Source: Eledone cirrhosa (taxonomy: Eukaryota). From it: a stretch of 64,000 bases of DNA. The notes beneath the pieces are model-generated. The model was not told where the DNA came from and ran no database searches. It worked only from the letters and a program-made list of their open reading frames with translations. Shown in pieces: positions 2,670 through 9,139 of this stretch (position 1 is its first letter; each line of letters starts with the position of its first letter). The position numbers and the translations under genes are program-made. Location of the stretch: positions 26,598,001-26,662,000 of the forward strand of contig OZ024752.1 in NCBI GenBank assembly GCA_964016885.1. The letters run 5' to 3'.

Positions 2670-3323
2670 CTGAAAACATGAAATATGGTAAAACAGTTTA
2701 AAGGATCATAATTTAAGCCAAAATGTAGAAAATAACTTTCTTTGCTTCGAGATGTAAACGCATCTTCCACGGTAACATATCAACAAAAGCACACATACAT
2801 TCGAAGTTCCAGTCTGATAGAAACGTATTGAAAGATCGTTGAATAACAAACTTTGTGTACCTTCGAAATGTACATAACAGGCTGACGCAATGGAATAAAG
2901 TAATGTTGTATATGTGCTACCGTCTCTCTTCCTTTTTTAATACCCTCCCCCCTCCATATATATATATATATATATATATCGTCCACGATTTCATAGAACT
3001 TATGTTCATCGATTTCAGGGACTTGACTCCTTCTTCCTCACTTTTCGTTGCATTACCATCTTTGTTTGTTTACTGTCTCGCTCGTTCCCCCGATTTACGT
3101 GTCCCAACGACTTTGTTTAGCCGTTGCTCGCACCAACCAGAGGTATATGGTCTTTAAAGCGATGAAATACCAATGAAGGTTGGAAGATCACTGATGAAGG
3201 ACTAAATTTATTCATATGTAACCCATTTGCAACCAAGCAGCACGCCATCTTTTCATATTTTTCATATATATATATATATATATATATATATATATATATA
3301 TATATATATATATATATATATAT

Positions 3324-6025
3324 ATACATTATGAAGAGAGAAGAAACATTTAGATATAATTAGTAATAAAATGTATCATACCTAAACTGCTCCTAAATTC
3401 CTCGACTACGTAGTTTCGTGGCATAAACAAAAACAATATATTAAAGACATAGAGTCCTTGCGAGGTCTGCCGACTTATCAAGAGGATACCTCATTTTACT
3501 AGTCTCAAGAACGCGTCTACACGACGTGAGAAAGAATCCCAAAAGGCGGAGGGGGAGATAGTCACGCGATATAACGGTCGAGAAACAGAGCTAAGCCTCC
3601 TATAACCACGAAGAAAATACCACGGAGGCGGAGGGGGTATTCATATCGAGGCCGTAGAAGAGGTGGTGAAGAAGGCGAGAAGTATGAGTAATGGAAGCTT
3701 TCCAGTTGTCCCCACACTTCAAAGATTGCTCGACCAGAGGGAGTTATTAACAATATATTTAGAAACACACAGATACATGCGGACACACACATATATACAT
3801 GAATGCATCCGCACCCAACTGTGAGTTAAGGGTGCCAACTTCACCGATGTTGCTCAATGAATGACTGGGACAGACCAATTCAGTTGAACCAGACTGAACC
3901 AGTATCAGAGTTAAAAATACATTATGAAGAGAGAAGAAACATTTAGATATAATTAGTAATAAAATGTATCATACCTAAACTGCTCCTAAATTCCTCGACT
4001 ACGTAGTTTCGTGGCATAAACAAAAACAATATATTAAAGACATAGAGTCCTTGCGAGGTCTGCCGACTTATCAAGAGGATACCTCATTTTACTAGTCTCA
4101 AGAACGCGTCTACACGACGTGAGAAAGAATCCCAAAAGGCGGAGGGGGAGATAGTCACGCGATATAACGGTCGAGAAACAGAGCTAAGCCTCCTATAACC
4201 ACGAAGAAAATACCACGGAGGCGGAGGGGGTATTCATATCGAGGCCGTAGAAGAGGTGGTGAAGAAGGCGAGAAGTATGAGTAATGGAAGCTTTCCAGTT
4301 GTCCCCACACTTCAAAGATTGCTCGACCAGAGGGAGTTATTAACAATATATTTAGAAACACACAGATACATGCGGACACACACATATATACATGAATGCA
4401 TCCGCACCCAACTGTGAGTTAAGGGTGCCAACTTCACCGATGTTGCTCAATGAATGACTGGGACAGACCAATTCAGTTGAACCAGACTGAACCAGTATCA
4501 GAGTTAAAAATACATTATGAAGAGAGAAGAAACATTTAGATATAATTAGTAATAAAATGTATCATACCTAAACTGCTCCTAAATTCCTCGACTACGTAGT
4601 TTCGTGGCATAAACAAAAACAATATATTAAAGACATAGAGTCCTTGCGAGGTCTGCCGACTTATCAAGAGGATACCTCATTTTACTAGTCTCAAGAACGC
4701 GTCTACACGACGTGAGAAAGAATCCCAAAAGGCGGAGGGGGAGATAGTCACGCGATATAACGGTCGAGAAACAGAGCTAAGCCTCCTATAACCACGAAGA
4801 AAATACCACGGAGGCGGAGGGGGTATTCATATCGAGGCCGTAGAAGAGGTGGTGAAGAAGGCGAGAAGTATGAGTAATGGAAGCTTTCCAGTTGTCTCCA
4901 CACTTCAAAGATTGCTCGACCAGAGGGAGTTATTAACAATATATTTAGAAACACACAGATACATGCGGACACACACATATATACATGAATGCATCCGCAC
5001 CCAACTGTGAGTTAAGGGTGCCAACTTCACCGATGTTGCTCAATGAATGACTGGGACAGACCAATTCAGTTGAACCAGACTGAACCAGTATCAGAGTTAA
5101 AAATACATTATGAAGAGAGAAGAAACATTTAGATATAATTAGTAATAAAATGTATCATACCTAAACTGCTCCTAAATTCCTCGACTACGTAGTTTCGTGG
5201 CATAAACAAAAACAATATATTAAAGACATAGAGTCCTTGCGAGGTCTGCCGACTTATCAAGAGGATACCTCATTTTACTAGTCTCAAGAACGCGTCTACA
5301 CGACGTGAGAAAGAATCCCAAAAGGCGGAGGGGGAGATAGTCACGCGATATAACGGTCGAGAAACAGAGCTAAGCCTCCTATAACCACGAAGAAAATACC
5401 ACGGAGGCGGAGGGGGTATTCATATCGAGGCCGTAGAAGAGGTGGTGAAGAAGGCGAGAAGTATGAGTAATGGAAGCTTTCCAGTTGTCCCCACACTTCA
5501 AAGATTGCTCGACCAGAGGGAGTTATTAACAATATATTTAGAAACACACAGATACATGCGGACACACACATATATACATGAATGCATCCGCACCCAACTG
5601 TGAGTTAAGGGTGCCAACTTCACCGATGTTGCTCAATGAATGACTGGGACAGACCAATTCAGTTGAACCAGACTGAACCAGTATCAGAGTTAAAAATACA
5701 TTATGAAGAGAGAAGAAACATTTAGATATAATTAGTAATAAAATGTATCATACCTAAACTGCTCCTAAATTCCTCGACTACGTAGTTTCGTGGCATAAAC
5801 AAAAACAATATATTAAAGACATAGAGTCCTTGCGAGGTCTGCCGACTTATCAAGAGGATACCTCATTTTACTAGTCTCAAGAACGCGTCTACACGACGTG
5901 AGAAAGAATCCCAAAAGGCGGAGGGGGAGATAGTCACGCGATATAACGGTCGAGAAACAGAGCTAAGCCTCCTATAACCACGAAGAAAATACCACGGAGG
6001 CGGAGGGGGTATTCATATCGAGGCC
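3324..6025 (-). repeat. 593-bp tandem array (~4.5 copies) with one hammerhead motif per unit; retrozyme/pLTR-like
   Basis: Unit recurs at 3327, 3920, 4513, 5106 and 5699; only one substitution noticed (~4897). Abuts (AT)n on the left; followed by an inverted fragment of the unit (6026-6095) and then (AT)n. Confidence 0.95.
3399..3486 (-). ncRNA. Type I hammerhead ribozyme, U3-A8 core variant (further copies at 3992-4079, 4585-4672, 5178-5265, 5771-5858)
   Basis: Minus strand reads tcctc-TTGATAA-gtcggca[~50 nt]tgccac-GAAA-ctacgtag-TC-gagga. Helix I tcctc/gagga, stem II gt(c)ggca/tgccac, palindromic stem III, GUC cleavage triplet. Confidence 0.8.
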
Positions 6026-6115
6026 GGTTGGGTGCGGATGCATTCATGTATATATGTGTGTGTCCGCATGTATCTGTGTGTTTCTAAATATATTATATAT
6101 ATATATATATATATA

Positions 6116-6630: not shown

Positions 6631-8443
6631 AAAACCACAAACCATCCATCTCAATTCTACTTTTGAAAAGCAGAAGTACTGCGAAACCGGTAAAGGAAAC
6701 GAATAAATATTCTTAGAAAGACTCCAGTTGCATTTTCTATTTCATCTTTTTTACTTACATTTTCACTCGTGTAGGACATCTTCATTTTTTTTCATTTAAA
6801 CCCCCACCTCATTTTCTTATATATATATATATATATATATATATATATATATATATATATATATATATATATATATATATATATATATATATATATATAT
6901 ATATTGTGTTGAACAATGAAAATAATACAAAAGTGGAAGATAAGTTCTTAATTAGTTCATAACTTTACAATAATTTCAGAGACATGATTGATCATAGTAA
7001 ATTGATACATTGACTAATATTTATTGTTTATGTCACCAACTATTTCTAGTCTCATTATCTTAGATACTCGTTGAAGTTCGATGGTACATTCAACGAATAT
7101 TCAATACTCGTTGAAATCATCGGTTCAAGTTTGCATTGAGTTCTAAAAACGTGATTGGCCCCACCATAAAAAAACAAGTGTTTATATATATATATATATA
7201 GGATAAATGATAAAGATCCCACAACTCCTTGTGGAGTTGTAGAAGCACCGTGTGTCTAGGGCACTTTTAAACCTGGCGGAGCCCAACCCTCTGGACTGGC
7301 ACTTTTTTTATCGACTTCGAAAGGATGAAAGGCAAAGTTTATCACGGCGGGATTTGAATATATATATATATATATATATATATATATATATATAAGGGCG
7401 ATGCCCCAGCATGGTCTCAGCCGGATGGATGGAACAGGTAAAAGAGTCAAAGAGTATATTTAAAGCCTAGTAATATATCCCTCAACAATTTTAACGAGCT
7501 ATATTTATAGTTAACAACGCAAGTAGCTCACTAGACAGTCATTGACCGTAGATTTTACTACTCTCGACACAGTTTATATTTTAGACAGCTCGAGATCTAA
7601 TAACACTAACACTCAAACCAGGCGGCTAACCTGGTGAGGGCTCAGCTTCAGTTGTCGAAGACGATATAATGTAACAGTAGCTGACAGTAGCTAACATGTA
7701 TAAACAAAGACACGCACGGAGTTACAGACGCACAGAAACATAAACGAACGATTTATCCAAACAGGCATTCCTATATATATGTGTATATATATATATATAC
7801 ACACACACACACACACACACACACACACATACATATATATATATATATATATATATATATATATATATATATATATATATATATATATATATATATATAT
7901 ATATATGTATATATATATATATATATATATATATATATGTGTGTGTGTGTGTGTGTGTGTGTGTGTGCGTGCGTGAAAATATAGTATCTACAATGAAGAT
8001 AACTATTATAATAGTTCATTGGTTTAATAAAATCGGATAAGTTTATAGGCTTCTCTGTCTATTGCCCCTACCCTACATCTCCATGGGTAATTTATCCGAT
8101 TCTATTCAAGTAATATTTATTTATTGGTTATTGACATTTGAAATAATGTATATAATCATATCAACCCGGATTCGTTTTCTGATACGTAAACAAACAGCCA
8201 ACGTAAACACAGACACGGCCGGGGAAACAATTGTAACACATTAAATTAAGTTCAGATGCATCACTGATTTTTCGTTTTCTATTCTATCATACTCTGCTCT
8301 GTAAGAGCATAGAGTGCTCAACTGGCATACCGCCTATGGAAGCATCTTAGCTACCATCAGACACACACACACACACACACACACACACACACACACACAC
8401 ACACACACACACACACACACACACATATATATGTATATATATA

Positions 8444-8633
8444 TCGCCGTATTTTGACTAACGAAATTAAAGAAATTATTTAGCCTGATAGTGGAGTTAA
8501 GAACCCTCGGAGAAATGGAAAAAGATGAGTATTGACGTGTCAATACTCATCTTTTGCCATTTCTCCGAGGGTTTTTAACCCCACTATCAGGCTAAATAAT
8601 TTCTTTAATTTCTTTAGTCAAAATACGGCGATA
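8444..8633. repeat. Fold-back inverted repeat (~93-bp arms) between microsatellites
   Basis: tcgccgtattttgacta...gagtattgac / gtcaatactc...tagtcaaaatacggcga. Confidence 0.85.
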
Positions 8634-9139
8634 GCTTACATTTCTAATAATTTCAAACCCACTCGCTGTTTCGAAAATATTCTTACTTGAATATATATAT
8701 ATATATATATATATATATATATATATATATATATATATATATATATATATATATATATATATATATATATATATATATATATATATATATATATAGACAT
8801 ATATGTATATATTTAACAAAGAAGGTGTGGTAAGATACCAGGTGGACCATAACGCACCAGAGTAATCGAAACTTAGGGTAGTAGTGTCGGTAACAGTAAA
8901 AAAGTCAAGACCCCGACGGCTGAGCTTCGGCCGTTTCGACAGCTAGATGCAAACTCATTGTATATATTATATATATATATATATATATATATATATATAT
9001 ATATATATATATATATATATATATATCGGTAGAGAGAAGGAGAGAGAGAGAGAGAGAGAGAGAGAGAGAGAGAGAGAGAGAGAGAGAGAGAGAGAGAGAG
9101 AGAGAGGTATATATACATACACAATACTTTAATACTTAC

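What the first reader, a model, noticed from the sequence alone, without database searches (positions are those of the whole stretch)
2670..9139. Six sense-oriented hammerheads inside intron 1 of the ITIH-like gene
Seen: the gene is on the minus strand, and so are the five array hammerheads and the one at 6383-6423. Inference: host pre-mRNA would carry self-cleaving sites, so the host promoter could drive release of 593-nt monomers or circles, and cleavage may compete with exon 1-2 splicing. By contrast, the 310-bp array and most intact hammerheads further upstream are antisense to the minus-strand exons.
Basis: inference. Interest (0 to 1): 0.7.

Follow-up and report, generated by a model that had tools for sequence, protein, structure and literature searches.

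The report
Young retrozyme array in ITIH intron
Five intact self-cutting-RNA motifs do lie in the sense direction in the first coding intron of an inter-alpha-trypsin-inhibitor-like gene, but they belong to one very recent insertion of a parasitic 593-base repeat with over 6,000 motif copies in the genome, likely copied from a single RNA circle by a Penelope-type enzyme, and they are predicted to cut too slowly to stop the splicing that is seen across this intron.

Summary
Observation largely confirmed. Five identical type I hammerheads (U3-A8 core, palindromic stem III) lie on the minus strand, cutting after 3404+593n, in an intron of a VIT+vWA (ITIH-like) gene; exon 9140-9220 is joined to 2512-2669 in one RNA-like contig. 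The sixth is a lone, stem-II-mutated copy of an unrelated 420-bp repeat. The array is one insertion of a non-LTR retrozyme with 6,411 core motifs genome-wide, so sense intronic copies are expected by chance. All sampled insertions sit in (TA)n; 44 of 46 two-armed ones start at fixed site A on one arm and fixed site B on the other, with one haplotype per locus: likely Penelope-type double priming on one circle. The array's haplotype occurs in only one other unit genome-wide, probably its mother; no daughter is seen. Folding predicts masked monomers and dimer-dependent cutting, so an effect on splicing is unlikely but untested. The scan has noted twin-primed retrozymes and sense intronic hammerheads before on other DNA. 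Verdict: real, ordinary passenger; new member of a known kind.

The parts
9140..9220 (-). first coding exon of the ITIH-like gene (ATG at 9220, 27 codons, signal-peptide-like, phase 0 donor)
   Evidence: sequence; 23 letters of it joined to exon 2 in an X4 contig
2670..9139 (-). first coding intron, GT-AG, 6,470 nt
2512..2669 (-). coding exon 2, VIT domain positions 1-49
   Evidence: Pfam PF08487 E 4.7e-7; spliced in X4
1908..2018 (-). coding exon 3, VIT domain positions 51-85
   Evidence: Pfam PF08487 E 2.4e-8; joints in X4
693..943 (-). coding exon 4 (5' end shown by RNA-like contig, 3' end by donor sequence)
3264..3326 (.). (TA)n target tract left of the insertion
3327..6026 (-). retrozyme long arm: 4.55 copies of a 593-bp unit, starting at fixed site A (unit position 1) and stopping at position 328
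3399..3486 (-). hammerhead 1 (U3-A8 core, cut after 3404)
3992..4079 (-). hammerhead 2 (cut after 3997)
4585..4672 (-). hammerhead 3 (cut after 4590)
5178..5265 (-). hammerhead 4 (cut after 5183)
5771..5858 (-). hammerhead 5 (cut after 5776)
6027..6094 (+). retrozyme short inverted arm: unit positions 426-493, starting at fixed site B; no hammerhead
6088..6117 (.). (TA)n tract right of the insertion, shared with the end of the 420-bp element
6115..6630 (-). 1.2 units of an unrelated 420-bp hammerhead repeat (96 bp duplicated)
6382..6424 (-). sixth hammerhead: minimal type, lone copy, U.U at the base of stem II and a G>A change that breaks a stem II pair

Best explanation
The array is one very recent insertion of a 593-bp non-coding hammerhead repeat (a non-LTR retrozyme) into a (TA)n tract of an ITIH-like intron, likely made when a Penelope-type enzyme copied one circular RNA from both ends of a DNA break, and it is predicted to be a passenger whose slow, dimer-dependent ribozymes leave splicing largely intact. 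Steps. (1) Shown: every insertion edge sits in (TA)n at one of two fixed unit positions, and two-armed insertions use one of each. (2) Inferred: both cut DNA strands prime reverse transcription on the same RNA, one at site A and one at site B, 168 nt apart; each cDNA runs round the circle (here 4.55 turns and 68 nt) and the two are joined head to head. (3) Inferred: the template is a monomeric circle, made elsewhere by dimer-dependent hammerhead cleavage and ligation; the C28 copy L049 is the likely mother. (4) Shown: exon 1 is spliced to exon 2 in one sample. (5) Predicted: in the host pre-mRNA neighbouring hammerheads pair through helix III, but stem I is mostly tied up in competing hairpins, so any cutting would be slow relative to the 0.7-3.1 kb still to be transcribed, and would mostly act on the excised intron.
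For: 6,411 core motifs genome-wide, control 4; copies 96-100% alike in the best-hit set. Of 77 insertions (one duplicate dropped) 44 are A+B, 0 A+A, 0 B+B, 2 two-armed with another start, 31 one-armed (15 A, 15 B, 1 other); in the 40 loci taken in genome order 24 of 24 A/B-type two-armed loci are A+B. Inherited variants are carried by all units of a locus in 147 of 152 and 73 of 76 cases, both arms included (55 of 59). 72 of 123 arms are longer than one unit and arm ends do not pile up at the cut site (3 seen, 1.7 expected). A young autonomous PLE (1,217-aa frame, 28,564 candidates) has the same (TA)n target and two end zones, one per arm in 6 of 6 two-armed loci. The array's 116/122 haplotype is in 6 units genome-wide: 5 here and the full unit of L049, whose partial unit keeps the family base. 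Splice shown. Masked monomer, favoured helix III dimer. Hammerhead repeats are dense around the paralogues, 5 sense and 5 antisense in 40 kb.
Against: No circle or cleavage end was observed; only contigs were available. It is not known whether sample S2, which gave the spliced contig, carries the insertion; the join rests on one contig of depth 3.3 with 23 letters of exon 1, in a run not on record as RNA. Extra conservation of the ribozyme was significant in a first test (2 of 43 against 128 of 539 columns, p 0.002) but not after removing ascertainment (0 of 43 against 29 of 539, and 1 of 30 against 69 of 539, both p 0.16). No C3-G8 sister family was found (1 hit, not examined). The unit shares no clear sequence with the candidate PLE, so the mobiliser is not identified. 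Equilibrium folding at 37 C omits tertiary contacts and proteins; one PLE hammerhead is protein-assisted (PMC11167929). With only 10 upstream bases the dimer core reaches P 0.21. The mother-daughter direction rests on one base.
Confidence: 0.78

Rival explanations
1. Host-fed source locus without harm: the gene splices normally, and the excised or nascent intron is then cut by dimeric hammerheads, so the host promoter supplies 593-nt circles in tissues that express the gene.
For: Five intact sense motifs, among the longest one-strand arrays sampled (1 of 40 loci has five on one strand); helix III dimer predicted; the gene is transcribed; no splice, poly(A) or strong acceptor motif was found in the unit. 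Intron-borne release from host transcripts is proposed for other ribozyme retroelements (PMC6765202 passage).
Against: No daughter with this haplotype in the assembly, though the array is very young (1 change in 2.7 kb, against about 0.35% family mean). Two listed X4 contigs over unit positions 66-286 differ from the window by 2 and 3 letters, as many as the array's private alleles there; the letters were not shown and most contigs were not listed.
Confidence: 0.3
2. One reading: co-transcriptional cutting competes with exon 1-2 splicing and lowers or tunes output from the array allele.
For: Precedent: fast intronic ribozymes abort splicing, and the CPEB3 ribozyme modulates its mRNA (PMC10274809 abstract and passages). 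Four adjacent pairs give repeated chances to cut. The U3-A8 core is reported active in vitro (PMC3088659 passage).
Against: Hammerhead cleavage in an intron left splicing intact in the cited mammalian work; only the fast HDV ribozyme blocked it (PMC2995048 passages). Predicted active fraction is low. PLE-type dimeric hammerheads cleave poorly in vitro (PMC4209133), and 8 of 9 Xenopus retrozyme dimers did not cleave (10.64898/2026.07.22.740005). No such array upstream of exon 2 in three paralogues. Spliced product exists.
Confidence: 0.12
3. The tandem array grew at DNA level (unequal crossing-over or slippage of one inserted unit) or was copied from a linear uncleaved multimer, with no circle and a possibly silent ribozyme.
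For: A PLE used uncleaved RNA as its main substrate in vitro (PMC11167929). A homogeneous source array gives homogeneous daughters. Satellite-type expansion is the model discussed in 10.64898/2026.07.22.740005. The ribozyme's extra conservation is not significant.
Against: A linear multimer has many A and B sites, so A+A and B+B should occur; none in 46. Variants seen in one locus only are often in all its units, on both arms, while later mutations stay in single units, which points to a one-unit bottleneck at each insertion. Inverted arms cannot come from unequal crossing-over.
Confidence: 0.15

Closest known systems
Metazoan non-LTR retrozymes (Cervera and de la Pena 2020, PMC7229834, passages read; Li, Clavereau and Pollet 2026, 10.64898/2026.07.22.740005, parts 1-3 of 5 read)
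   Same: Tandem non-coding units, each with one type I hammerhead, GC under 50%, thousands of dispersed copies, no LTR, PBS or PPT, co-occurring with PLEs; 42-44% of Xenopus copies lie in introns; the unit folds stably as a circle (z -7.1 against 25 shuffles).
   Different: Unit of 593 bp is above the 150-450 bp of the first paper but inside the 51-972 bp of the second; U3-A8 core and 57-nt stem II arm; strict (TA)n target; two fixed priming sites used one per arm, which the parts of these papers that I read do not describe; no homology to a PLE pLTR found.
EN+ Penelope-like elements with inverted pLTR and 'tail' (Craig et al. 2021, PMC8557442, passages; Frangieh et al. 2024, PMC11167929, parts 1-2 of 4)
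   Same: Tandem plus inverted 5'-truncated structure, microsatellite target, a tail at one end only, two internal reverse-transcription start sites, both DNA strands cut and extended, predicted dimer.
   Different: No ORF; the distance between the start sites is 168 nt, not 30-40; 2-6 nt of TA microhomology at the start sites; arms run through several complete units.
U3-A8 and dimeric minimal hammerheads of PLEs (PMC4209133, PMC3088659, passages)
   Same: Same core covariation, bulge in helix II, palindromic helix III that favours a dimer.
   Different: Helix III palindrome is 10 nt with the closing pair (dimer duplex -14.3 kcal/mol) and stem II is much longer.
Conserved intronic ribozymes: CPEB3 HDV-like, amniote RECK and C10orf118 hammerheads (PMC10274809, PMC3088659, passages)
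   Same: Sense ribozyme motif in an intron of an expressed gene.
   Different: Those are single-copy and conserved across species; this is a repeat copy with almost no divergence, absent from the same position in three paralogues.

Membership tests
Type I hammerhead ribozyme | Core boxes (C3/U3 UGA N G8/A8 A, GAAA, UH) around three helices | tested here: met
   U3-A8 is a known natural covariation (PMC4209133, PMC3088659); Rfam gave no hit
Type I hammerhead ribozyme | Self-cleavage at the predicted site | not testable with these tools
   only contigs available; folding predicts dimer dependence
Non-LTR retrozyme | Tandem non-coding units, each with a type I hammerhead | tested here: met
   no ORF of 100 aa or more in the array
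Non-LTR retrozyme | Many dispersed copies, mobile | tested here: met
Non-LTR retrozyme | Expressed as linear and circular monomer RNA | tested here: inconclusive
   unit present in contigs of RNA-like run X4, strand and circularity not visible; genomic signs of a circular template
Non-LTR retrozyme | Ribozyme kept intact by selection | tested here: inconclusive
   p 0.002 with ascertainment, p 0.16 without
PLE-mobilised non-autonomous element | Tandem plus inverted structure with two fixed ends, tail at one end | tested here: met
   44 of 46 two-armed insertions A+B; same pattern in a resident PLE
PLE-mobilised non-autonomous element | Sequence shared with an autonomous PLE's pLTR | tested here: not met
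   only low-complexity matches to the one PLE family tested; other PLE families not tested
Host-regulatory intronic ribozyme (CPEB3-like) | Single copy, conserved at the same position in related genes | tested here: not met
   thousands of copies; not at the same place in three paralogues; other species not available
Host-regulatory intronic ribozyme (CPEB3-like) | Cleavage half-life matched to transcription time, effect on mRNA level | not testable with these tools
   predicted low active fraction; no kinetics
ITIH-like gene (host) | Signal peptide, VIT and vWA domains in one gene | tested here: met
   same strand and order; exons beyond exon 4 linked by position only

The most novel reading that the evidence does not exclude
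A freshly landed, dimer-gated ribozyme array turns a host intron into a circle factory: the ITIH-like promoter drives the RNA, adjacent hammerheads pair and cut, the array allele loses part of its spliced mRNA, and the released 593-nt circles, A-to-I edited on the way, are the single templates that a Penelope dimer copies from both ends of a break. The C28-to-C12 pair would be a traceable mother-daughter step of that cycle.
Probability: 0.12. Interest if true: 0.65.

Novelty: new member of a known kind. Interest (0 to 1): 0.3.

Why it matters
For the host gene it probably matters little: it shows that a genome with thousands of hammerhead repeats tolerates even five intact sense motifs in an expressed intron, at least for a short time. 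For retroelement biology the family is useful: the strict one-A-one-B rule, one haplotype per insertion, arms several units long, a likely mother-daughter pair and an A>G excess on the RNA strand give genomic evidence for how animal retrozymes are inserted, which the 2026 preprint calls unresolved. This locus is also a natural test of exon tethering, because an empty allele and an array allele can be compared.

Tried and rejected
Rfam scan: no hammerhead hit, only microsatellite-driven miRNA matches. Run search: no RNA holder listed; X4 was judged RNA-like from its splice joints. Contig depth over the unit was not used as an expression level; no contig across the locus-specific inversion joint was listed, so zygosity in S1 and presence in S2 stay open. 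A C3-G8 sister family: 1 hit, not examined. Pile-up of arm ends at the cut site: 3 of 123, expected 1.7. Selection on the ribozyme: not significant after removing ascertainment. Homology of the unit to the resident PLE, to the 310-bp and to the 420-bp repeats: none beyond low complexity. Host gene around the likely mother locus: 88 of 92 candidate frames in 80 kb scanned, only a C2H2 zinc-finger frame and a LINE endonuclease piece matched, so its promoter is unknown. Pfam and PDB gave no hit for the whole 1,210-aa PLE frame; its PLE identity rests on a weak RVT_1 match of the C-terminal part (E 0.0012), the tandem/inverted layout, and GIY-YIG-like residues recognised from memory. A genome-wide test of orientation bias in introns was not possible without annotation. 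Two papers were not held; Dye 2006 and Fong 2009 are cited only through PMC2995048 and PMC10274809. Supplements of the bioRxiv preprint (intron tables, family lists) were not seen and could bear on orientation bias and on whether fixed ends were noted. Rows dropped: one duplicated locus (L085), one 60-bp weak match (L079), segments under 200 bp.
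Full report
Observation. The finding names six minus-strand hammerheads in the intron 2670-9139. A descriptor scan finds five identical motifs with C17 at 3404+593n and a sixth cutting after 6388, and none on the plus strand in the intron. The five have the core UUGAUAA, the U3-A8 covariant of CUGAUGA, a 5-bp stem I, a bulged 6-bp stem II with a long extension and a palindromic stem III. U3-A8 is a known natural variant, found in schistosome PLEs (PMC4209133, passage) and reported active in vitro (PMC3088659, passage). Rfam does not score them. The array spans 3327-6026, 4.55 units with one mismatch, then turns into an inverted 68-bp piece, and both outer ends lie in (TA)n.

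Host gene. Exons 2512-2669 and 1908-2018 encode VIT positions 1-49 and 51-85, and exons 10-12 kb beyond the window's left edge encode vWA, so 'ITIH-like' is right. No run was on record as RNA, but a contig of run X4 joins exons 4, 3 and 2 at GT-AG introns and ends in 23 letters identical to 9140-9162; the three other runs show no such joints. The first refutation criterion of the finding is therefore not met: exon 1 is spliced to exon 2. Limits: one contig, depth 3.3, another sample, carrier status unknown. That the animal is an octopus is taken from earlier notes and from recall of such repeat content, not from a call of mine.

The sixth motif. It lies in 1.2 units of a separate 420-bp repeat with no clear similarity to the 593-bp unit. 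It is a single copy, pairs poorly with the array's palindrome (-3.1 against -14.3 kcal/mol), and carries a G>A change in stem II that 17 of 18 other sampled copies lack. It is probably inactive (inference).

The family. The core pattern occurs 6,411 times, control 4; at 72 motifs in 38 loci that is roughly 3,400 loci. I examined 37 best-hit loci with the window and 40 loci taken in genome order. Outer ends fall on (TA)n at unit position 1 (A) or about 426 (B). Of 77 insertions, 44 are two-armed A+B, none A+A or B+B, 2 are two-armed with another start, and 31 one-armed (15 A, 15 B, 1 other); with A and B equally used, 44 of 44 mixed has probability about 6e-14. Variants shared between loci are carried by all units of a locus in 147 of 152 and 73 of 76 cases. 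72 of 123 arms exceed one unit, and ends do not collect at the cut site.

Mechanism of insertion (inferred). This is the layout described for Penelope-like elements: inverted 5'-truncated copy, tail at one end, microsatellite target (PMC8557442, passages), with two internal start sites, both strands extended and a predicted dimer (PMC11167929, parts 1-2 of 4). A resident young PLE has the same target and the same one-of-each ends in 6 of 6 two-armed loci, but shares no clear sequence with the unit, so the partner is a candidate only. One A, one B and one haplotype per insertion are what a single monomeric circle primed from both DNA ends would give; a linear multimer would allow A+A. I reached this reading before consulting earlier notes; the scan had already recorded the same pattern for other families in this and other genomes. 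Three literature searches listed no paper that describes it for retrozymes; the library lacks most subscription journals.

Is this locus a source? Its alleles at unit positions 116 and 122 occur in six units in the genome: the five here and the full unit of a C28 copy. That copy is otherwise identical, and its partial unit keeps the family base at 116. One change explains C28 as mother and this array as daughter; the reverse needs two. No daughter of this array is in the assembly. It is, however, very young (1 change in 2.7 kb against about 0.35% for the family), so it has had little time. The unit is present in X4 contigs, and two listed contigs differ from the window by as many letters as the array's private alleles (letters not shown, list cut).

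Is the orientation special? From the tally, an insertion of this family dropped at random in an intron gives at least one sense motif in 59% and two or more in 21% of cases. Around two paralogues, 40 kb hold 5 sense and 5 antisense motifs of several families, and 20 kb at a third hold none; the rest of the focal gene has both orientations. Earlier notes list sense intronic hammerheads in at least six other genes of this genome (unchecked). In Xenopus 42-44% of retrozyme copies are intronic, with a significant but partial depletion (10.64898/2026.07.22.740005, parts 1-3 of 5). Five on one strand is uncommon (1 of 40 loci), which is the one distinctive trait here.

Would it cut the pre-mRNA? In isolation the monomer fold has P about 0.02-0.03; with 30 or more native upstream bases it is 5e-4 or less, because both stem I strands have competing hairpins. 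Two adjacent units pair through helix III with P 0.86-0.998, and one complete core then forms with P 2e-4 to 2.5e-2 in native contexts, 0.21 in the shortest. So cutting is predicted to be dimer-dependent and slow. The sites lie 0.7-3.1 kb before the acceptor, under a minute at the mammalian rate quoted in PMC10274809. Intronic hammerhead cleavage did not block splicing in mammalian cells, whereas a fast HDV ribozyme did (PMC2995048, passages citing Dye 2006 and Fong 2009, which I did not read). PLE-type dimers cleave poorly in vitro (PMC4209133) and 8 of 9 Xenopus dimers showed no cleavage (2026 preprint). Against this: folding omits tertiary contacts and proteins, most invertebrate retrozyme hammerheads cleave efficiently (PMC7229834, abstract), and the circle inference implies that this family does cut somewhere. 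Extra conservation of the ribozyme was significant at first but not after removing ascertainment (p 0.16).

Editing. This fits A-to-I editing of the template and supports the minus strand as the RNA, but is not proof.

Verdict. Real motifs, real intron, real splice; a new family of a known kind, with the host gene most likely a bystander. Best explanation 0.78; harmless host-fed source 0.3 (compatible with the best explanation); splicing competition 0.12. Interest 0.3.

Noticed in passing
family-wide, loci L020, L025-L060, L071-L110: Inherited changes are skewed to A>G on the RNA strand (21 sites against 11 U>C; binomial p 0.0017, against private changes p 0.03), recur on several haplotypes (564, 132, 274) and favour a 3' G; this array differs from the family majority by three A>G and one G>A. 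Compatible with A-to-I editing of the template; G>A is also frequent (16), so polarity is uncertain.
   Followed up: partly
G000:C28:33039217-33040191 (L049): Identical to this array's unit except at position 116 in its partial unit; likely mother locus. No host gene recognised within 40 kb either side.
   Followed up: partly
family-wide arm ends: Arm ends cluster at unit positions 320-332 (9, expected 2.7; this array stops at 328) and 56-70 (9, expected 3.1); windows chosen after seeing the data.
   Followed up: no
window 14724-16693, minus: 5'-truncated copy of a very young Penelope-like family (1,217-aa frame, 28,564 candidates) beside a 2.7-kb (TA)n tract; copies end at two zones 43-59 nt apart, one per arm.
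   Followed up: partly
window 12290-14070, minus: Probable last exons of an upstream ITIH-like paralogue; 13238-13528 matches a late exon of the focal gene (E 6e-9). The gene sits in a tandem cluster, paralogous exon 2 copies at 76-83% identity.
   Followed up: partly
window 24152-25907; 27984 and 28515; 57278-57616; 57891-58642: Four further hammerhead repeat insertions (310-bp array, 531-bp pair, an older two-armed copy of the 420-bp family, a 560-bp two-armed family), mostly plus strand.
   Followed up: no
window 8442-8633: Near-perfect 95-bp inverted repeat with a 2-nt gap in the same intron, MITE-like.
   Followed up: no
window 3131-3160, plus: A first core box of a hammerhead without the rest, in a decayed repeat left of the array (by eye).
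   Followed up: no
L154:6922-7214: An independent, truncated insertion of the same 593-bp family upstream of exon 2 of the neighbouring paralogue, lacking the ribozyme core.
   Followed up: no
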